DNA of 64,000 bases, taken from an uncultured Alphaproteobacteria bacterium (GTDB lineage: Bacteria; Pseudomonadota; Alphaproteobacteria; RF32; CAG-239). The notes under the pieces are model-generated. The model did not search any database. It worked only from the letters and a program-made list of their open reading frames with translations, and was not told the origin of the DNA. The stretch lies in assembly GCA_944390885.1 (NCBI GenBank), contig CALXRP010000003.1:35004-99003 (forward strand), given 5' to 3'. Shown here piece by piece: positions 30,164 to 37,908 of the stretch. The stretch's first letter is position 1, and every line of letters begins with the position of its first letter. Both the position numbers and the translations under genes were made by a program.

Positions 30164-30238
30164 GCCGCTATAGCTCAGTGGTAGAGCACACCCTTGGTAA
30201 GGGTGGGGTCGTAAGTCCGATTCTTACTAGCGGCACCA
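30164..30238 (+). tRNA. tRNA-Thr (anticodon GGU)
   Basis: 75-nt cloverleaf. Acceptor gccgcta/tagcggc, D-arm gctc-agtggta-gagc, anticodon stem caccc/gggtg with loop ttGGTaa, T-arm gtaag-tccgatt-cttac, discriminator A, encoded CCA. Confidence 0.85.
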
Positions 30239-30961
30239 TTTATCAGTTTCTGGCGTTTTTAGTAGTTCATCGAATGGCTTAACTATTGAAAACGCTATAT
30301 TTTTTCCTTCAGTTTTGCAGTCCGATAATATTAATTTCAAAATGTCTCTTTTTTCAGAAATAATCGGACTTTTTAAGAATTTTCCTACATTTGCAGCTAT
30401 TTCCGCGATATTTGCTAGTATTTCATCAGTTTCAGCATCAATCTCAAGGTATTTATCCATATCTTTTTGTAGTTTTTCTTTTTCCATTTCAATTTCAGTT
30501 TTTAATTCATTATACATTTTTTCATCGCATTTGCCTCTCATATAGCCACGAAACAAGGTTTTGAGCTGTTCATCTAATTGATTTATCTTGAGAGTAATAT
30601 CACGTTTGAGAGTCGCTGTATTTACTCTTTCTTCTTTAAGCTGCTTTTTGACTTCGGCTTTAATATTTTTTAGCATATCGTCACTAACGGCAAGAGGTAA
30701 CGACAATTCTTTTTCAAGCTGGGCGAGGATTTTGGCTTCATTTAATGGTTTCTGACTGCATTTTGAACGTAATTTGTTGCATTTGAGATAATTATAAGAG
30801 TGTTTGTCATCTTTTACTTTGGTTTCACAAGTCATCAAGCTGCCGCAACAACCACATCTGACTAAACCGGTAACCTTCTTTCCGGCATAATCTTTCAACC
30901 CGTCCCATATAATCGGCAGAGGTGCTTGCGCTGTAATTATTTTCCAAAAGCCAGTTTTCAA
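30227..30961 (-). pseudogene. C-terminal remnant of a large serine recombinase (zinc-ribbon and coiled-coil region); no catalytic resolvase domain
   Basis: CGCCGSLMTCETKVKDDKHSYNYLKCNKLRSKCSQK resembles a recombinase zinc-beta-ribbon, followed by a long coiled coil (EQLKTLFRGYMRGKCDEKMYNELKTEIEMEKEKLQKDMDKYLE). There is no N-terminal catalytic Ser domain. Its 3' end overlaps the tRNA-Thr 3' end by 12 nt. Confidence 0.5.
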
Positions 30962-31404
30962 AATTCTTTAACATCTCAAATCTCCTTTATACCAAATTAG
31001 CCAATCAATACCGGTTCAGAAAACACAGCCACCATAACCCGCTGCAATCTTTTACACTCAGCCATGCAATCGCTAAAATATTGATAAGGTGTTGGAAGAA
31101 TTGTGTCATTAAGTTTTACATACCACATAGTTTTTTCCTTTCATAAATAGTGTTTTGCTCATTAACTATTTATATTATGCGGTATATTTTCCCATCCGCG
31201 AGCCCCTAAAACGCTAGTTGCCAACGACATTTTGCTACGATTTGGACGGGATTACTAAGGAACGGACAAAAATCCTTTAACTTTTCGGTAAATCAGAAAA
31301 GAAGTTTTGTATAAATGATGTTTTTGATGTGATATATTAATTTGTCCAAGCCTGAAATAAAAGTACTAAAACAAAAATTTCAATATTAAGGACTATGTAT
31401 TCCT

Positions 31405-32397
31405 CTATATTAAATCTGCATAAGGCAATGATTTGATATAGTCTTCCATATATTGCCAATCAGGATCACCCTTTTGCGTTATTGGCAAACGAATAGTCTC
31501 ATTACAAAATTTATTATAAAAAGCTTTTCTGCCAAATTGAAATTTATACTTATTTTTCTTCATAATTGTTGTTATAAACAATGCATTATATTTATTTAGT
31601 TTCTCGTTATGGAAACAGTATATTTCATCTGATGCTGTAAATTCATTTTCTACATAAAAAGCAGATGCAAATGTATTATATACTATGCAATTTTTTTCTA
31701 TAAAAAGAGGATTGCTAATCTGATCTGTTTGGCTATTGTTAAATTCGGAAGCTGAATAATAATCAATATCGCCACTAATTCGATCTTCAGCAATTAATCG
31801 TTGCCCATGTGTTATTCGTGTCCATAGTTTTTTATCTATAAAGGAAAATTCGCCCCATTTTTTTATATCTTTATAGCAAGTTGATATGTTTAAAGTTTCA
31901 ATAGGATTAAATTTTACATTTTTTGTTATATTATTTGTATAATTCTCCATATAATTCCAATCAGGAGCATTGTTTTTATCTACAGGAAGAAGGATATTTT
32001 CTCTTTCCAATCTACTATTACTTATCTCTCTTCCAAAATTATACTTATAACGTATTTTTTCAAAAACTGGCTTAAGATATAGAGCTATATTTTTTGTTAA
32101 CATTCTACCTTTAGGCCAAAAAACCGTAACATGATCGGATGCTATAAAATTATAATTATGATAAAAAAGATATCCGACACTACCACTATTGCTAATTGTT
32201 AAGCAATTATTATAGACAATTACTTTAGCTCCTTTTTTTGTTGTTAAAGGGGGTGCTACATAGTCATTAATGCCATTATTATCTTTAGAGGAAGAAACAT
32301 AAGGAATATCTCCTATAATATGCTCATCTTCTGTAAAGCGAACACCTCTTTTATAATCAAAAACCTCAGAAAAAGGAAAATATTTAAATTGCTTCAT
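31405..32397 (-). CDS. Restriction-modification specificity subunit with two tandem target-recognition domains (BcgIB-like)
   Basis: 330 aa. Two homologous halves each end ...FGR...LP....G.PDWxYMExY (NFGREISNSRLERENILLPVDKNNAPDWNYMENY and QFGRKAFYNKFCNETIRLPITQKGDPDWQYMEDY). 14-nt overlap with the upstream methylase-nuclease gene. Very AT-rich. Confidence 0.5.
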   Translation of the reverse strand: MKQFKYFPFSEVFDYKRGVRFTEDEHIIGDIPYVSSSKDNNGINDYVAPPLTTKKGAKVIVYNNCLTISNSGSVGYLFYHNYNFIASDHVTVFWPKGRMLTKNIALYLKPVFEKIRYKYNFGREISNSRLERENILLPVDKNNAPDWNYMENYTNNITKNVKFNPIETLNISTCYKDIKKWGEFSFIDKKLWTRITHGQRLIAEDRISGDIDYYSASEFNNSQTDQISNPLFIEKNCIVYNTFASAFYVENEFTASDEIYCFHNEKLNKYNALFITTIMKKNKYKFQFGRKAFYNKFCNETIRLPITQKGDPDWQYMEDYIKSLPYADLI

Positions 32398-34345
32398 TTT
32401 TATTTTCCTTATAATATGCGCTCAGAATATCAAGCATTTCGGCCTCTGACTTTTCTTCAAATAATATACCGATGTCTTTTTTAGCCTCAAATATCATATA
32501 TTCACGCACAGAATTAATAAAATCCTGTTCAGATAAATTAGAATAATCTGTTTTACTATGTGCATAAATAGTCCACTCATCTTTGGGTTTGATTTTTGTT
32601 TTTACATATATGATATCATCTGGTTTTTCACCATTATTTGTTCCTCTTATTATAGATAATAATTTTTTTTCAATGCTATTCCATTTATTGTAGATATCTG
32701 TTCTGCCTTTATTTTTAGCAAGAACAAAGCCATCGTCTCGCAAATCATAAAAAATTACTTCATCATTATTATAATCAAATGCCCTATTGGTTTCAAAAAT
32801 AGCTATAGCTGTATGAGTAGAAGCATTTGGTTGGAATAAATCCTTTGGCATATTTATTACTGCTTTTAATGTATGTTTTTTTAAGATGTTATCACGAATA
32901 GCTTCATCTTTAAAATACATACTTAGAGGAGCAATAACTATCCCATAACGAGAACAATTATCTAATAACTTTGTTAAAAATGTTATTTCCTTCGGTGTTG
33001 GATCTTCTTTATTTTCCTTGCCGCTGTAAGGAGGATTAATAAAACCAATAGTAGCTTTAAATTCATCTAGCTTTTCTTGTGCTCTACAATCTTTTATCGA
33101 ATCATAATTGTAAATAGATGATTTTCCATCGCCTCTAAACATCATACTTGATATAGCACATATATACATAGTAGGATTTATTTCAAAGCCAAGTAACTGT
33201 GTCTGTTTTACATTAGCAATGGCTTCTTGTTTATCTGTTCTATTGCTTTTTTCAATTTTATTTATAATAGCATTCATCCCAGCAATCAAAAAAGCTCCTG
33301 TTCCACAACATAAATCTACTATTTTATCATTTTCTTTCAAATCGATTAGTTTAGTGAAAAGGGTTGTAATATGGCGAGGAGTCAAAACAATACCTTTTTT
33401 TACATTAGAAACACCTGCATATTTTAAAAATTCTTCATAAAACCTTCCAATAATATCATAATTTGAAGATTTAGCAAAATTACCAGTAAGTAAAGGAATA
33501 ACATTATTTTTTAGTTCATCCAGAATCTGTTTTAAAATATCACTTGTTCTTAATGTAACATCCGTTTTCAAAAATGCTAATTCAGTATCTAATACTTCTA
33601 GCTTTTCAGCCGGAATTCCTTCGTTTTTTAAAACACGAGGAGCTTGAAGTAAGATATTATCCGCTAATGTGGTTGTATCCATAGTGCTATAAGTTGCGGA
33701 GAAAGATCCTGTATTTTTATTATGAAGACATATCATCAAAGCAGACAATAAAATTGGTCTTTTTTGCGAATCTATAGATCTAAGAAGATTATTTATTTTT
33801 TTACTTGAGGAACTTATTTTTGTAACAGCCTCTTCTTCATTCAAACTATTGAATAAAGCTAAAAAAGAGTCTTTATTTACAAAATTCGTAATCTGAGGAA
33901 CAGAAATAATCTTTTGCTCTCTATTGTCTAGCATAAAACAACTAAATTTATATTGATATTCTTTTAATAAATCCCCACTTACAGCAATACCTAAAATTCT
34001 CCATGATTTAAAAACATTTTTTTGAGAATTGTCTAAATTATTTTCTTGAAAACGACTTAAATACCATTTAATGCCACTTACAGCACCCTTTTCTATATCT
34101 TCTAAATCATGTTCTTTCATTGTGGGCTTTTCTTCAACAAGAATAAGCAGCTTATTCTTTCCATCGCAATAAATTCTATCCGGATAACCTTCACGCCCTG
34201 TTTGTCTCTTTGATGAGCAAGATAAAACTTTCTTAATATCATCAGTTAATTTGCTTTTAGAATCATCCCAATCCGCAACATTATATCCTAAATTCTGCAA
34301 AACAGTTGTAACAGATGGTGTTATATTCTTATCTTTCCTTGCCAT
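32384..34345 (-). CDS. Fused PD-ExK nuclease plus gamma-class N6-adenine DNA methyltransferase (BcgIA-like Type IIB R-M subunit)
   Basis: 653 aa. Putative PD-ExK near the N-terminus (YPDRIYCDGKNKLLILVEEKP). SAM motif I VDLCCGTGAFL precedes catalytic motif IV FINPPYSG, the gamma-class order. No hsdR in the vicinity. Size and gene order match BcgIA (637 aa)/BcgIB (341 aa). Confidence 0.6.
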   Translation of the reverse strand: MARKDKNITPSVTTVLQNLGYNVADWDDSKSKLTDDIKKVLSCSSKRQTGREGYPDRIYCDGKNKLLILVEEKPTMKEHDLEDIEKGAVSGIKWYLSRFQENNLDNSQKNVFKSWRILGIAVSGDLLKEYQYKFSCFMLDNREQKIISVPQITNFVNKDSFLALFNSLNEEEAVTKISSSSKKINNLLRSIDSQKRPILLSALMICLHNKNTGSFSATYSTMDTTTLADNILLQAPRVLKNEGIPAEKLEVLDTELAFLKTDVTLRTSDILKQILDELKNNVIPLLTGNFAKSSNYDIIGRFYEEFLKYAGVSNVKKGIVLTPRHITTLFTKLIDLKENDKIVDLCCGTGAFLIAGMNAIINKIEKSNRTDKQEAIANVKQTQLLGFEINPTMYICAISSMMFRGDGKSSIYNYDSIKDCRAQEKLDEFKATIGFINPPYSGKENKEDPTPKEITFLTKLLDNCSRYGIVIAPLSMYFKDEAIRDNILKKHTLKAVINMPKDLFQPNASTHTAIAIFETNRAFDYNNDEVIFYDLRDDGFVLAKNKGRTDIYNKWNSIEKKLLSIIRGTNNGEKPDDIIYVKTKIKPKDEWTIYAHSKTDYSNLSEQDFINSVREYMIFEAKKDIGILFEEKSEAEMLDILSAYYKENKNEAI

Positions 34346-34479
34346 AATATTTCCCCGTATAACTATATTTTTATAGTTATACTAATTTTTACACAATAAT
34401 ATAAAAATTTAGTTAATATTAACATTAATTTAATCTTTAGCCATTAACGACATCAAACAACGACTCGTTAAAAAGCTCA

Positions 34480-34590
34480 ACTTTTCTTATTAACCGCTTA
34501 AATTCATCATAATTTTCAGTCCGATAACTGCACAGTATCGCGCACCATTTATTGAAATTCCGCATCTATTGCGGATTTTTTGTTTTTAAA
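34480..34590. repeat. Cassette-flanking repeat, copy 1 (between the R-M genes and GNAT)
   Basis: cttttcttattaaccgcttaaattcatcataattttcagtccgataactgcacag...ttccgcatctattgcggatttttt. It ends in a hairpin plus T-run (ccgcatctattgcgg tttttt). Confidence 0.5.
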
Positions 34591-34764
34591 CAAAAGATTA
34601 TTTAGTCCGATTTTTGAGGTTTTGAAAAGAGCAATTTTGATAAATTGATATGAAATTTCAATTTTATTAGTAATTGATTATTAAGGGAAGGCTTGCAAAA
34701 TAGATCTTATTTGCTAGACTTAAATTATTCTGTTTTTTAATTAGGACTTATTGGGAAAATAGAC

Positions 34765-35301
34765 ATGGAATTAAATTCTGAATATTTAACAGAAAGATTA
34801 GAAATTAGGATTTTAGAAGCTCATTTTGATCTTGCTAAAAAATTGCTCAATTATGTTAAAAAGAATCAAGAGCATTTTTATTTTATGTATGGTTTTGTTG
34901 ATTATGATTCTGTGGAGGAAATGTATGATTTTCTAAAAAGAAGAAAGTTAACAAATAATCCTTTTTATGGTCTTTTTTTGAAAGGATCGGATGAATTAAT
35001 CGGTTCTATTTCAATGACCGGATATGATAAAAAAAACGGCAAAGCTGAAATTGGATATACATTGGATAAAAATTTTGTTCATCAAGGTTATATGACTGAA
35101 GCTGTTACTTTTTTTGCAGAAGAGGTGATGCGTCAGGGATGTCGCAAGTTGATTGCATATATTGATATTGAAAATGTAGATAGTCAAAAAGTTTGTGAAA
35201 GATGTGGATTTATTAAAGAGGCTAGGTTAATTAAAGAAAAATTTGATCGACATAAGAGTGAATTTGTTGATATTTGTCTTTATTGTAAGTTTGCCTCTTA
35301 A
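34765..35301 (+). CDS. GNAT-family N-acetyltransferase (RimJ/RimL-like)
   Basis: 178 aa. LEIRILEAHFDLAKKLLNYV..., motif A region IGSISMTGYDKKNGKAEIGYTLDKNFVHQGYMTEAVTFF, then RQGCRKLIAYIDIENVDSQKVCERCGF. Confidence 0.75.
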   Translation: MELNSEYLTERLEIRILEAHFDLAKKLLNYVKKNQEHFYFMYGFVDYDSVEEMYDFLKRRKLTNNPFYGLFLKGSDELIGSISMTGYDKKNGKAEIGYTLDKNFVHQGYMTEAVTFFAEEVMRQGCRKLIAYIDIENVDSQKVCERCGFIKEARLIKEKFDRHKSEFVDICLYCKFAS

Positions 35302-35329
35302 TAAACTCTCATAGCAAATTTTGCTTAAG

Positions 35330-35392
35330 AGGATTCATTTTCATATTCACCAGTCCCGATAACTGCACAGAAAAAGTGCAGCATTTAACACA
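35330..35392. repeat. Cassette-flanking repeat, copy 2 (short form)
   Basis: cagtcccgataactgcacagaaaaagtgcagcatttaacac shares the core with copies 1 and 3. Contains a perfect hairpin ctgcac-agaaaaa-gtgcag. Confidence 0.45.
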
Positions 35393-35427
35393 AAACCTTC
35401 TGATAGGGGGCTGATGTTGGAACGGAC

Positions 35428-36036
35428 TTATAATAGTTTGTGAATATCATATTCATCATAGCCTTCATAATAATAACTGACATTAATGCCTTTCATAAAG
35501 ATTTCTCGTTCATCAATTTTATCTGTCAGAGCATTTTTTAGGAGATGTTTTATTTCAATATCTTTAACAGGGCTTCTTTCCATTGCTGATAAATAATCTT
35601 CTTTATCAATTTTATTCCAATCAACAACTTTTTTAATTTCTTTCTTAAAGATTAAATCCAGCCAAATTCTTGTTGCGCGGCCGTTTCCTTCCCGGAAAGG
35701 ATGGGCAATATTCATTTCAACATATTTTTCAACAATTTCATCAAAAGTTGATTGAGGCATTTTATCTATATGTTTTAGGGCTTGCTCCAAATACATCACC
35801 GGAGCAAATCTGAAGTTGCCTTTTGATATGTTAACATCACGCATTTTTCCGGCAAAACCATAAATGTCTTCAAACAAATACTTATGAATCTGTTTTAATC
35901 CGGCAAATGTGCCTACTTTTATCTGATTGATTTTGCCACTATCAAAAAACTTTTTAGCCTTTTCTTTACTGAGTTTTTCTTCAATCTTATTCAATTCAAT
36001 TTGATTGGTAATATTCAATTTATTTTCTAAAACCAT
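35428..36036 (-). CDS. Class III Fic-family AMPylator (Fic motif plus C-terminal auto-inhibitory helix)
   Basis: Fic motif [12 protein letters not shown] (HxFx[DE]GNGRxxR). C-terminal [12 protein letters not shown] contains the [ST]xxxE[GN] inhibitory motif (S-YYY-E-G). About 200 aa, like the self-contained NmFic type. The start is likely an internal Met (MVLENK); the track starts at 36048. Confidence 0.75.
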
Positions 36037-36162
36037 TATAAAAATCATCTTTCATAAAAAATGCATTATATTTTGATAATAATATAAAATTGCTAAAATT
36101 TACATAATAAAATCAAATTGCCAACACTTCAGATTGTTGTTCCAAGCTATCTTCCAATGACT

Positions 36163-36270
36163 CCATTTTCTTGTTAATTGTTTAAGTTCATCATAAAATT
36201 CAGTCTGATAAACTACACAGCAAAAGCACAGCATTTTTTAAGATTTCCGCATTTATTACAGATTATTTGA
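36163..36270. repeat. Cassette-flanking repeat, copy 3
   Basis: ttttcttgttaattgtttaagttcatcataaaattcagtctgataaactacacagcaaaagcacagcattttttaagatttccgcatttattacagattatttg is about 80% identical to copy 1 over about 100 nt. ORF 36275..36514 next to it is probably spurious. Confidence 0.5.
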
Positions 36271-36516
36271 CTTTTTGATGTTTTTTAAGAACTCTGTAAA
36301 ATCTTTCGTTTGCTCAGGAGTAACATTTTTGTTTTCATATTTTTCCGGCGGGAAAAAGTATGTCCCTTGGGTCGGTTCCGGTCTAAATTACCTAAATAAA
36401 CGGACTTTTTATCATCCAACAGCAACATTTTGTGCTCAGTATTCTTTTTTTGCTTTTAATTTTTATATAATAAATTTATGCTGTGGGCATGGTCTTAACA
36501 ATTACGGAGGATAATT

Positions 36517-37341
36517 ATGACAAAAAGCGTGAAAAACAACGGCCTTTACACGGCCTCGCTTATTGACAGATTTTTTAGCTGGCTGAAAAAAACCGCTTAT
36601 AATAATTTTTTGGAAACAAACGAAAAATGGTTTACCAAAATTGGTTTGACATTGATGTATTTTATTGCCGTGATGTCTTTGCTGGTTGCTATTGTTTTTG
36701 TTTTGAAATATAATGCGTTAAGCACTTTTTATGTTTTGACTGCCGGAATCTGCGGCGTGTTTATTACAATTGTTTTTCAATATATTGCCGCCAAAACAAT
36801 TCCCTGCCTTAATACGTTGATCCATAATACGCCGGCAAAATTCTCTTCAACCGCCGTTTTAGAAGTTTTGGCCTTGGCTGCCGGGATTTGCGGTGTTATT
36901 GCCCTGATCGGCGGGCTGATCCTATCAATCAAAGCCAGCAGTCTTTACTTCTTTATTTCCGGTATTGCCATTTTTGTTATTTGTGAATACTGGATGGCCA
37001 TGGCTATGAAACCGGAGTTGCTCAATATTGAAATTGTAAAAAACATTTCTGCCGGAGAAGAATTTATCGGCTTATTGACATTTTTTGCCAAAGGTTCTTT
37101 GAAAATTATTCCGGTAATTTTCTGCGGCTGCATGATTTTTGCCGCTTATGACCTGATTGCCATGATGTTTGTTAAATATAATTATATCGGGGAAATTAAT
37201 CTGGAGGCCGGAATCGTTGCTTATGCAATGTGCGGTGCCCTGCTTCCGCTGTTTGGATATGTTTCATTCCTCGGTTATTATTTCACAATTGACATTGCAC
37301 GGGCAATTCTTTCAATCCCGGCAAAGCTGGATAAAAAATAA
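36517..37341 (+). CDS. Polytopic membrane protein, hypothetical
   Basis: 274 aa with RBS ggagg, 6-7 hydrophobic helices and a bidirectional terminator after it. Confidence 0.4.
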   Translation: MTKSVKNNGLYTASLIDRFFSWLKKTAYNNFLETNEKWFTKIGLTLMYFIAVMSLLVAIVFVLKYNALSTFYVLTAGICGVFITIVFQYIAAKTIPCLNTLIHNTPAKFSSTAVLEVLALAAGICGVIALIGGLILSIKASSLYFFISGIAIFVICEYWMAMAMKPELLNIEIVKNISAGEEFIGLLTFFAKGSLKIIPVIFCGCMIFAAYDLIAMMFVKYNYIGEINLEAGIVAYAMCGALLPLFGYVSFLGYYFTIDIARAILSIPAKLDKK

Positions 37342-37349
37342 TCATCCGG

Positions 37350-37387
37350 CACGAAATAAAAAAACTGTCCCGATTGTTTGGGACAGT
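37350..37387. terminator. Bidirectional rho-independent terminator
   Basis: aaaaaaactgtcccgattgtttgggacagtttttttt: an 8-bp stem flanked by A- and T-runs. Confidence 0.5.
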
Positions 37388-37392
37388 TTTTT

Positions 37393-37908
37393 TTATTTAT
37401 ACCCCGGCGCTTCCGCTTGAGCGATGGTTTCATAAATATTTTCCACATCCTTCAGGCTCATGCCCTTTTCACAACGGGCGGAAAAATATCCCGATTCAGC
37501 ACCAAAATACATTACATAAATCCAGTCATTGTCCTTTTTTAAGGTAACCGGTACACAATCGTGTAAGAGAATTTCCTCACACAACGGATAACTGCCATAG
37601 TCGCCGCTGATGTCTCCGCCATTGATCTCGCTTCCACATTTTCGAACAACAACTTCTCTGTTGCCGTCCAAGAAATAAGTAACTTCAATCATATTATTCA
37701 TTGCCCGGACGGAATATTCAGAAAGTTTTAACGGAAACGTAAAGCCTGCTTTTTGAGCCGCACAACCCAAATCTTTTCCACATTCAACCCACGGATTGGG
37801 AATGCCATACGGGGATTTGATGTTTTTTCCGGGACTACAACAGACACATGCCAAGCAAGCTGCTCCCAGCAACAAAAAATTTCCGGCTTTTACAATAATC
37901 TTTTTCAT
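37393..37908 (-). CDS. Secreted or lipoprotein, hypothetical
   Basis: Start at ATG 37906-37908 gives MKKIIVKAGNFLLLGAACLACVCCSPGK, a signal peptide with a possible lipobox. The track extension to 37995 is unlikely. Confidence 0.35.
   Translation of the reverse strand: MKKIIVKAGNFLLLGAACLACVCCSPGKNIKSPYGIPNPWVECGKDLGCAAQKAGFTFPLKLSEYSVRAMNNMIEVTYFLDGNREVVVRKCGSEINGGDISGDYGSYPLCEEILLHDCVPVTLKKDNDWIYVMYFGAESGYFSARCEKGMSLKDVENIYETIAQAEAPGYK

What the first reader, a model, noticed from the sequence alone, without database searches (positions are those of the whole stretch)
31405..34345. BcgI-like Type IIB restriction-modification system (nuclease-methylase A subunit plus two-TRD specificity B subunit)
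The 653-aa protein combines an N-terminal putative PD-ExK site (YPDRIY...ILVEEKP) with a gamma-class N6-adenine methylase (motif I DLCCGTGAF before motif IV NPPY). It is followed, with a 14-nt overlap, by a 330-aa protein made of two homologous target-recognition halves. No HsdR-type helicase-nuclease is present. Sizes and order (A then B) mirror BcgI (637 and 341 aa). Type IIB enzymes cut on both sides of their site, so this would be a rare example outside Firmicutes and Bacteroidetes.
Basis: partly seen in the sequence, partly recalled or inferred. Interest (0 to 1): 0.55.

Follow-up and report, generated by a model that had tools for sequence, protein, structure and literature searches.

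The report
BcgI-type two-gene restriction-modification cassette
Two overlapping genes encode an ordinary member of a widespread family of combined DNA-cutting and DNA-methylating defence enzymes with a separate sequence-recognition subunit, carried on a small mobile DNA cassette inserted next to a tRNA gene in a gut alphaproteobacterium.

Summary
On the minus strand, 32384..34345 encodes a 653-aa protein (A) and 31405..32397 a 330-aa protein (B), with a 14-nt overlap. A has four parts: an N-terminal PD-(D/E)XK nuclease (P55-D56...E71-x-K73), a helical connector, an HsdM-like N6-adenine methylase (DLCCGTGAF, NPPY) and a C-terminal tail. The nuclease motif is invariant in relatives down to 26% identity. 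B consists of two homologous target-recognition domains.

No helicase or HsdR gene lies in the 64-kb window or within 10 kb of the cassette in any other genome. A and B are homologous over their full lengths to Sau42I of Staphylococcus phage phi-42, published as a BcgI-like system. They also match phage genes annotated bcgIA and bcgIB.

The core interpretation therefore holds: an ATP-independent RM+S enzyme of the BcgI type (Type IIB/IIG/IIH). [quoted passage not shown]

The rarity claim is wrong. Close relatives (48-71% identity) occur across many bacterial phyla and a DPANN archaeon, and more distant ones on plasmids and phages.

The genes sit in a 3.6-kb low-GC cassette that is at least 99% identical in three genomic contexts. 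Here it lies in a 4.3-kb strain-variable insert at the 3' end of tRNA-Thr(GGT). This is a new member of a known kind and of low interest.

The parts
32384..34345 (-). Gene A: 653-aa (74.4 kDa) fused restriction endonuclease and N6-adenine methyltransferase (RM subunit)
   Evidence: ORF. Pfam N6_Mtase at residues 295-541, E 4e-27. Full-length PADLOC REase_MTase_IIG matches, E about 1e-50. 29% identity over 638 columns to the Sau42I RM protein, E 3e-53. AF2 model pLDDT 81.8.
33881..34345 (-). A residues 1-155: PD-(D/E)XK nuclease domain
34127..34183 (-). Catalytic motif P55-D56-x14-E71-E72-K73 (PDRIYCDGKNKLLILVEEK)
   Evidence: Translation verified. G53, E71 and K73 are invariant, P55 is nearly invariant, and position 56 is D or E in 31 relatives at 26-62% identity. 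P55, D56, E71, E72 and K73 are invariant in 68 closer relatives. The D-x14-E-x-K spacing equals that of the BsaXI catalytic residues D90, E105 and K107 (PMC11997821).
33464..33874 (-). A residues 158-294: multi-helical connector between the nuclease and the methylase
   Evidence: All-helical in the AF2 model, H158-H293. It corresponds to the R-H-M layout described for BcgI-type RM subunits in PMC11997821.
32696..33463 (-). A residues 295-550: gamma-class (HsdM-like) N6-adenine methyltransferase domain, with motif I DLCCGTGAF (33290..33316) and motif IV NPPY (33026..33037)
   Evidence: Pfam PF02384. PDB sequence hits to Type I HsdM subunits, E down to 4e-9. Foldseek top hits are HsdM structures. 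Motifs verified and invariant in homologues.
32384..32695 (-). A residues 551-653: C-terminal region with two long helices, a candidate contact surface for subunit B (inferred)
   Evidence: Helices 606-625 and 634-650 in the AF2 model. In about 820-aa relatives a single TRD is fused directly after this region.
31405..32397 (-). Gene B: 330-aa (39.0 kDa) specificity subunit. TRD1 = 31978..32397, conserved region 1 = 31858..31977, TRD2 = 31483..31857, conserved region 2 = 31405..31482
   Evidence: Pfam Methylase_S in two stretches, E 5e-25. PADLOC Specificity_II, E 7e-31. The halves are 34% identical, E 9e-23. 32% identity over 340 columns to the Sau42I S protein, E 4e-39. TRD2 is mosaic between lineages, as expected for a specificity subunit.
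32384..32397 (-). 14-nt overlap of the A stop and the B start (translational coupling inferred)
   Evidence: In most related two-gene loci the B start likewise lies inside the 3' end of A.
30934..34549 (-). 3.6-kb low-GC cassette carrying A and B, with about 200 bp upstream and 470 bp downstream
   Evidence: At least 99% nucleotide identity to loci in three different genomic contexts. In other genomes it is flanked by direct repeats of about 40 nt.
30244..34541 (.). Strain-variable insertion relative to an otherwise 99%-identical strain (L053), bounded by an 11-bp direct repeat GCACCATTTAT at the 3' end of tRNA-Thr
   Evidence: blastn against the empty site in L053. Junction sequences read directly. 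G+C is 30% against 45-46% in the flanks.
30164..30238 (+). tRNA-Thr(GGT), the integration target next to the insert
   Evidence: ARAGORN and Rfam tRNA at 70 bits. The same tRNA lies beside the cassette-bearing element in L040.

Best explanation
A and B form a BcgI/Sau42I-type restriction-modification enzyme (Type II, subtypes IIB/IIG/IIH).

Proposed mechanism:
- One B subunit carries two target-recognition domains and reads a bipartite, probably asymmetric, DNA sequence.
- Two A subunits dock on it, one per half-site.
- Each A uses its HsdM-like domain and S-adenosylmethionine to make N6-methyladenine in its half-site. This protects host DNA.
- On unmethylated DNA the N-terminal PD-(D/E)XK domain of each A cuts at a fixed short distance outside the site, with Mg2+. 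There is no ATP-driven translocation, because no helicase module exists.
- With one nuclease on each side, the site is expected to be excised by two double-strand breaks.

Shown here: the domain composition, intact catalytic motifs, homology to Sau42I, absence of hsdR, and the obligate A-B linkage.

Inferred from BcgI biochemistry: the A2B stoichiometry, two-sided cleavage, the need for SAM and the need for two sites.

The system was acquired horizontally on a 3.6-kb cassette in a tRNA-Thr-associated variable island.
For: 1. Architecture. The nuclease domain fold is supported. The catalytic P-(D/E)-x14-E-x-K motif is invariant down to 26% identity. The N6_Mtase domain has motifs I and IV. B has two Methylase_S TRDs.

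2. Family. PADLOC gives full-length matches to REase_MTase_IIG and Specificity_II models. A is 29% identical to Sau42I RM and B 32% identical to Sau42I S over their full lengths. Sau42I is published as BcgI-like (title cited in PMC6532042 and PMC2853133). PMC2853133 states that a Type IIG RM gene plus a Type I-like S gene, 'such as BcgI or Sau42I', is a known system type. A is also 27% identical to a gene that depositors named bcgIA.

3. Linkage. In 36 of the 37 GTDB loci that hold a relative of A at 48% identity or more, A is followed by a B gene (intact or split) or is fused to a single TRD. TRD2 of B is swapped between lineages.

4. No translocase. Helicase and ResIII domains are absent from A, from every Pfam-scanned ORF of 400 aa or more in the window, and from +/-10 kb in 8 other places that carry the identical A.

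5. Size. A is 74.4 kDa and B 39.0 kDa. BcgI is 71.5 and 39.2 kDa (PMC3592466).

6. Fold of whole A. It aligns over about 700 columns with the RM-fusion enzymes BsaXI, BpuSI and DrdV.
Against: - No biochemical or methylome data exist for this locus, so two-sided cleavage is not shown.
- A review describes the nearest characterised relative, Sau42I, only as cutting outside an asymmetric site ('type IIS', PMC6532042).
- BcgIA and BcgIB themselves could not be aligned.
- Public annotations of relatives call them only 'N-6 DNA methylase' or 'HsdM family methyltransferase'. Those names ignore the N-terminal domain rather than contradict it.
- BsaXI is matched only at fold level, not by sequence.
- The conserved regions of B are short, so the geometry and spacer length cannot be predicted.
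Confidence: 0.8

Rival explanations
1. A and B are the M and S subunits of a Type I system. Its HsdR translocase-nuclease would be encoded elsewhere in the genome, and cleavage would be ATP-dependent and distant from the site.
For: The methylase domain's best sequence and fold matches are Type I HsdM subunits. B matches the Pfam Type I specificity domain. Public sources name relatives 'type I restriction-modification system DNA methylase subunit'. The genome outside the 64-kb window was not seen.
Against: A carries about 290 extra N-terminal residues that HsdM lacks. They fold as a PD-(D/E)XK nuclease with invariant catalytic residues. The two genes move as a self-contained 3.6-kb cassette into three unrelated contexts, none with a helicase or ResIII gene within 10 kb. 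There is no hsdR in the window. The conserved regions of B are short, about 25-40 aa. PADLOC scores A best against RM-fusion models, E 1e-50 to 5e-51, against 6e-40 for the best Type I methylase model.
Confidence: 0.04
2. The pair is now only a methyltransferase (M+S). The N-terminal nuclease-like domain would be inactive or repurposed for DNA binding or regulation, so the system modifies DNA without restricting it.
For: No functional data exist. Orphan or 'solitary' methylases derived from RM systems are common (general knowledge). The BcgI nuclease is tightly controlled and inactive at single sites (PMC3177199), so loss of cleavage could be tolerated.
Against: G53, E71 and K73 are invariant and position 56 is always acidic in relatives at 26-62% identity. 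S45-K46, P55, H79 and S123 are kept in at least 90% of them. That is the pattern expected of an active site under selection. Both ORFs are intact in all 8 places that were examined. The low-GC cassette is spreading between genomes, as active RM modules do.
Confidence: 0.08
3. It is an RM+S enzyme as in the best explanation, but it cuts on one side only (Type IIG/IIS behaviour) instead of excising its site.
For: Type IIB is defined by behaviour, not by sequence. The review PMC6532042 files the relative Sau42I under Type IIS. PMC4027205 shows that Type IIB enzymes differ markedly in how completely they make the second break (TstI).
Against: The characterised enzymes with a separate two-TRD S subunit that are named in the literature I read (BcgI, BsaXI, CspCI) are all listed as Type IIB (PMC4081073). 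The (RM)2S assembly places one nuclease on each side of the site (BsaXI cryo-EM, PMC11997821). The two halves of B are homologous and each ends in the same PDW-YME motif. Each half could therefore dock one A.
Confidence: 0.12

Closest known systems
Sau42I of Staphylococcus aureus phage phi-42 (GenBank X94423; published as a BcgI-like RM system, Dempsey et al. 2005)
   Same: Two genes in the same order, with RM (639 aa) overlapping S (337 aa) by 20 nt. Full-length homology: A 29% identical, E 3e-53, and B 32% identical, E 4e-39. It has the same SK..G..P(D/E)...VE(D/E)K nuclease motif, the same methylase motifs and two TRDs. It is also carried on a mobile element.
   Different: Only about 30% identity. 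The first acidic residue is Glu (PE) in Sau42I and Asp (PD) here. Sau42I is phage-borne in a Firmicute, while this one is a tRNA-linked chromosomal cassette in an alphaproteobacterium. The TRDs, and hence the recognition sequence, differ.
BcgI of Bacillus coagulans (archetypal Type IIB, A2B)
   Same: A has a PD...EXK nuclease plus an N6-adenine methylase in one chain, and B is an S-like subunit. Masses are similar: 74.4 and 39.0 kDa here against 71.5 and 39.2 kDa (PMC3592466). There is no translocase. The R-H-M domain layout matches that described for the BcgI AlphaFold model (PMC11997821).
   Different: The BcgI properties have not been tested for this system: CGA N6 TGC, 10/12 cuts on both sides, SAM-dependent cleavage, the need for two sites, and maintenance-only methylation.
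BsaXI (Type IIB, (RM)2S; cryo-EM 8W0P, 8W2P, 8W2Q)
   Same: A separate S subunit with two TRDs. The RM subunit has an N-terminal PD-(D/E)XK nuclease with the same D-x14-E-x-K spacing, then a helical connector and a methylase. Whole-chain fold match, Foldseek E 7.5e-12 over 728 columns.
   Different: BsaXI RM is about 915 residues, with extra 'knob' and 'paddle' domains (PMC11997821). A is 653 aa and has no detectable sequence similarity to BsaXI.
Type IIG/IIL single-chain enzymes (BpuSI, MmeI, DrdV)
   Different: Those enzymes carry one TRD in the same polypeptide and cut on one side. Here both TRDs are on a separate subunit. Relatives of about 820 aa in 17 of 39 loci do carry one fused TRD.
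Type I HsdM/HsdS
   Same: Homologous methylase domain and TRD fold, with overlapping M-S genes.
   Different: There is no HsdR. The nuclease is fused to M, and the conserved regions of S are short.

Membership tests
BcgI/Sau42I-type two-subunit RM+S systems | One polypeptide with an N-terminal PD...EXK nuclease and a gamma-class N6-adenine methyltransferase | tested here: met
   The nuclease fold and an invariant P-(D/E)-x14-E-x-K motif are present, together with N6_Mtase motifs I and IV.
BcgI/Sau42I-type two-subunit RM+S systems | A separate S-like subunit of about 39 kDa with two target-recognition domains, encoded immediately downstream | tested here: met
   The adjacency is conserved in related loci.
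BcgI/Sau42I-type two-subunit RM+S systems | Sequence homology of both subunits to a characterised member | tested here: met
   Against Sau42I RM and S: E 3e-53 and 4e-39 over the full length. Against a phage gene annotated bcgIA: E 1e-53.
BcgI/Sau42I-type two-subunit RM+S systems | Direct sequence homology to BcgIA and BcgIB themselves | not testable with these tools
The BcgI sequences are in none of the searchable collections. There is only indirect support.
BcgI/Sau42I-type two-subunit RM+S systems | A2B stoichiometry, and SAM required for cleavage | not testable with these tools
   These are biochemical properties (PMC3592470, PMC3592466).
Type IIB restriction enzymes (behavioural subtype) | [quoted passage not shown] | not testable with these tools
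   Only inferred, from the two-TRD B subunit together with a nuclease-bearing A subunit.
Type IIB restriction enzymes (behavioural subtype) | Restriction and modification activities in the same protein, with no ATP-dependent translocation module | tested here: met
Type I RM systems | An HsdR subunit with an SF2 helicase/translocase and a nuclease | tested here: not met
   There is no helicase or ResIII gene in the 64-kb window or within 10 kb in 8 other places. The nuclease is part of A.
Type I RM systems | HsdM-type methylase and HsdS-type TRDs | tested here: met
   This feature is shared with Type IIB and IIG enzymes, so it does not discriminate between the families.
BsaXI-like Type IIB | 'Knob' and 'paddle' domains C-terminal to the methylase, with an RM subunit of about 800-915 aa | tested here: not met
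   A is 653 aa. BsaXI gives no sequence hit at E <= 1, and the similarity is at fold level only. The domains are described in PMC11997821.
Type IIG/IIL single-chain (MmeI/BpuSI) | The TRD is fused in the same polypeptide as R and M | tested here: not met
   A ends after the C-terminal helices and both TRDs are in B. Fused relatives do exist.

The most novel reading that the evidence does not exclude
The 3.6-kb A-B cassette may be a recombinase-less mobile module. It would move between genomes, and between sites near tRNA-Thr, by recombination at its roughly 40-nt tRNA-3'-end-like direct repeats, using integrases supplied in trans. It may also specify a Type IIB recognition sequence not yet in REBASE.
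Probability: 0.3. Interest if true: 0.35.

Novelty: new member of a known kind. Interest (0 to 1): 0.2.

Why it matters
The value is mainly in annotation. Public records call this family 'N-6 DNA methylase' or 'HsdM family methyltransferase' and miss the nuclease. As a result, a complete, self-contained restriction system is under-called in gut Alphaproteobacteria and many other lineages.

If expressed, the enzyme would probably have a new bipartite specificity. Type IIB enzymes are used for 2b-RAD-type reduced-representation sequencing.

The strain-to-strain comparison also gives a clean example of an RM cassette with an empty site and junctions at a tRNA gene. None of this changes current understanding of RM systems.

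Tried and rejected
1. Direct alignment with BcgIA and BcgIB was not possible. Their sequences are absent from the phage, plasmid and E. coli collections.

3. B against PDB sequences gave no meaningful hit.

4. The promoter and terminator scan of the cassette was no better than shuffled sequence: 27 sites against 27.5 expected. No promoter is claimed.

5. Looking for hsdR among large ORFs found none.

6. The look-up of encoding contigs with the 475-aa neighbour failed because the exact sequence is not on record. The ComF-like neighbour worked instead.

7. I considered that the cassette sits in three 'unrelated' contexts. At least two of them share a tRNA-Thr(GGT) neighbour. Part of that diversity is therefore the same integration target in different species.

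8. Rfam found nothing in the island except the tRNA.
Full report
**Observation**

The two ORFs are real and lie on the minus strand. A is 32384..34345 (653 aa) and B is 31405..32397 (330 aa). The B start codon lies 14 nt inside the end of A.

The quoted motifs were verified by translation:
- PDRIYCDGKNKLLILVEEK at 34127..34183.
- DLCCGTGAF at 33290..33316.
- NPPY at 33026..33037.

The genes are 28-29% G+C, against 45-46% in the flanking chromosome. Frames of this length in such AT-rich DNA cannot be chance.

**What A is**

Pfam finds only the N6_Mtase (HsdM-like) domain, at residues 295-541. PDB sequence hits are Type I M subunits over the same stretch. The first 290 residues are not covered by any Pfam model.

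PADLOC matches A over its whole length to restriction-methylase fusion models: REase_MTase_IIG, query 37-630 against model positions 33-631 of 637, E 1e-50.

The conservation pattern is consistent across two alignments.
- In 68 close homologues, P55, D56, E71, E72 and K73 are invariant, together with the methylase motifs.
- In 31 cluster representatives at only 26-62% identity, G53, E71 and K73 are invariant and P55 is nearly so. Position 56 is always Asp or Glu. S45-K46, H79 and S123 are kept in at least 90% of them, and Y95 and G124 in all.

An AlphaFold2 model of the whole protein (pLDDT 81.8) shows four parts:
- a small alpha/beta domain (residues 1-150);
- an all-helical connector (158-293);
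- the methylase (295-550);
- a helical tail.

Individual family members give weak Pfam hits to VRR_NUC (9 of 30) and HSDR_N_2 (7 of 30), both PD-(D/E)XK families.

D56 sits immediately before one strand and E71-x-K73 at the end of the next, which is the canonical geometry. The D-x14-E-x-K spacing equals that of the BsaXI catalytic residues D90, E105 and K107 (PMC11997821).

A is therefore a nuclease-methylase fusion with the R-H-M layout that the same paper describes for BcgI-type subunits.

**What B is**

B gives two Methylase_S matches and a PADLOC Specificity_II match. Its halves are 34% identical to each other. Each half ends in PDW-YME-Y.

Among B homologues from related loci, TRD1 is 48-65% identical to the window's TRD1 in all but the most distant locus. 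TRD2 is 74-84% identical in three loci and only 17-40% in the others. This is the mosaic pattern expected of exchangeable recognition domains.

**Linkage and the absence of a translocase**

Of the 39 loci recovered from species-representative genomes, 37 hold a relative of A at 48% identity or more. In 36 of these, A is followed by a B gene (intact or split) or is fused to a single TRD in a protein of about 820 aa.

No ORF of 400 aa or more in the window is a plausible HsdR. Ten were scanned against Pfam and gave no helicase or ResIII match. The others were identified from their translations and from Pfam annotation of near-identical loci. No ResIII or helicase gene lies within 10 kb of the identical A protein in 8 other places.

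**Link to characterised systems**

A tblastn search of phage genomes found two informative groups of hits.
- Staphylococcus phage phi-42, record X94423, 'restriction modification system'. [quoted passage not shown]
- Staphylococcal phages whose homologous gene pair depositors named bcgIA and bcgIB.

BLASTP results:

| Comparison | Identity | Aligned columns | E-value |
|---|---|---|---|
| A vs Sau42I RM | 29% | 638 | 3e-53 |
| B vs Sau42I S | 32% | 340 | 4e-39 |
| A vs the annotated bcgIA | 27% | 637 | 1e-53 |

The A alignment includes the nuclease motif.

[quoted passage not shown] The masses also agree with BcgI: 74.4 and 39.0 kDa here, against 71.5 and 39.2 kDa (PMC3592466).

I could not align BcgI itself. 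[quoted passage not shown] Many relatives have P-E at positions 51-57. Glu53 therefore probably corresponds to D56 here. This is an inference.

**Mechanism**

By analogy with BcgI (A2B) and with the BsaXI (RM)2S cryo-EM structure:
- B reads a bipartite site.
- One A docks per half-site.
- A methylates one adenine per half-site with SAM.
- On unmodified DNA, A cuts at a fixed short distance with Mg2+ and without ATP.

Two nuclease-bearing subunits placed symmetrically predict excision of the site. This two-sided cutting, the SAM dependence and the two-site requirement are inferred, not shown. A review files Sau42I merely as cutting outside an asymmetric site (PMC6532042).

**Rarity**

Relatives at 48-71% identity occur in the following groups:
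- Lachnospiraceae, Muribaculaceae, Prevotellaceae and Flavobacteriaceae;
- Elusimicrobiaceae, Endomicrobium, Melainabacteria and Planctomycetaceae;
- an Opitulatrix MAG, Fusobacterium and Pasteurellaceae (Caviibacterium, Conservatibacter);
- Mycoplasma and Spirochaetia;
- several other MAGs labelled Alphaproteobacteria and one labelled Gammaproteobacteria;
- a Pacearchaeota archaeon.

Relatives are also found on mobile replicons.
- Plasmids: for example Alkalihalophilus pseudofirmus pBpOF4-01, at 50% identity with an adjacent S gene.
- Phages: Mycoplasma phage MGyu-2021a at 57% identity.

The family is not huge. The N-terminal 292 residues find 95 cluster representatives at 50% clustering. But it is taxonomically broad, and it is routinely annotated only as a methylase.

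**Context**

The host is an uncultured gut-type alphaproteobacterium.

The identical A protein occurs in at least three genomic neighbourhoods. The shared DNA is a 3.6-kb cassette, window 30934..34549, at 99% identity or more.

Strains of the window's own species share 98-99.7% identical flanks. In them, the stretch between a 274-aa membrane-protein gene and tRNA-Thr(GGT) is hypervariable.
- One strain (L053) has only Fic and GNAT there.
- Others add Ank-repeat, NERD, HNH, DUF4379, Peptidase_S51 or a 739-aa N6_Mtase gene.

Relative to L053, the window carries a 4.3-kb insert (30244..34541). It lies exactly at the 3' end of tRNA-Thr (30164..30238) and is bounded by an 11-bp direct repeat, GCACCATTTAT.

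The insert consists of the cassette plus the C-terminal fragment of a large serine recombinase (30227..30961).

In other genomes the cassette is flanked on both sides by a repeat of about 40 nt that resembles a tRNA 3' end. There it again lies near tRNA-Thr(GGT). RM units integrated at tRNA genes are a described phenomenon (PMC2853133).

**Verdict**

The core interpretation is supported at the level of architecture and homology. Two-sided cleavage is untested, and the rarity claim is refuted. This is a new member of a known kind, and interest is low.

Noticed in passing
window 30164..30238 (+) and 30244..37400: tRNA-Thr(GGT) borders a low-GC, strain-hypervariable island. Strains with 98-99.7% identical flanks carry different gene sets between the 274-aa membrane-protein gene and the tRNA. 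These include Fic and GNAT only, or additionally Ank-repeat, NERD, HNH_3, DUF4379, Peptidase_S51, or AraC/HbpS with a 739-aa N6_Mtase.
   Followed up: partly
window 30243..30253 and 34542..34552; also 34507..34534, 34604..34615 and 30314..30328: The 4.3-kb insert is bounded by an 11-bp direct repeat, GCACCATTTAT, which is the tRNA 3' end plus 5 nt. Several further remnants resembling a tRNA T-loop or 3' end lie at the island edges. They look like footprints of repeated site-specific integrations.
   Followed up: partly
window 30934..34549; L040 9797-13413, L046 3110-6787: The A-B cassette is at least 99% identical in nucleotide sequence in three contexts, including two GTDB species representatives (L001, L002). 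In L040, L041, L042, L044, L045 and L001 it is flanked by direct repeats of about 40 nt, with core TTATCGGACTRAARATTATGAKGA, 3627 bp apart (3592 and 3565 bp in L044 and L045). The window keeps only the upstream copy, at 34507..34534. The cassette contains no recombinase gene.
   Followed up: partly
window 30227..30961 (-): A 244-aa ORF matches only the zinc-ribbon and C-terminal part of large serine recombinases (Pfam Zn_ribbon_recom; aligned to CcrB positions 296-463). The catalytic N-terminal domain is missing. The cassette edge at 30934 lies 28 nt inside the 5' end of this ORF, so it looks like a truncated remnant.
   Followed up: partly
window 30996..31127 and about 30875..30973 (-): Two small ORFs lie downstream of B and are conserved within the cassette (a 43-aa ORF in L040 and L043). 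The second begins MLKNFENWLLENNYSASTSADY. It continues differently in each context (56 aa in L040, 85 aa in L046). It resembles the N-terminal core-binding segment of tyrosine recombinases; that resemblance is from memory and was not tested.
   Followed up: no
window 34358..34381: A perfect 10-bp inverted repeat with a 4-nt spacer (TATAACTATA-AAAA-TATAGTTATA) lies immediately upstream of the ribosome-binding site of gene A. It is a possible operator. No controller (C) protein gene is present.
   Followed up: no
window 35428..36048 (-) and 34765..35301 (+): A Fic protein adenylyltransferase (NCBIfam NmFic equivalog, E 1e-95) also matches the PADLOC candidate defence family PDC-S04 (E 2e-106). 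It lies next to a GNAT acetyltransferase. This pair is present in nearly all of the strains examined.
   Followed up: no
L003, L011-L016, L018-L020, L029, L031, L032, L034, L036: About 40% of related loci encode a protein of about 810-870 aa in which A is fused to a single TRD ending in the same PDW-FME-YIKSLPY motif, with no separate B gene. This suggests a homodimeric enzyme for symmetric bipartite sites. Split and fused forms interconvert within one family at 60-70% identity.
   Followed up: partly
L041 14671-21504, L045 6274-13107: In some genomes the cassette is followed by a 579-aa tyrosine integrase (DUF6538 plus Phage_integrase), an Mrr_cat restriction-like protein, a resolvase and a KAP NTPase-like gene. 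Together these form a larger defence and mobility island.
   Followed up: no
family-wide: Public annotations of this family are 'N-6 DNA methylase', 'SAM-dependent methyltransferase', 'HsdM family methyltransferase', or even 'UbiE'. The conserved N-terminal nuclease domain has no Pfam model, so complete RM systems are recorded as lone methylases.
   Followed up: yes
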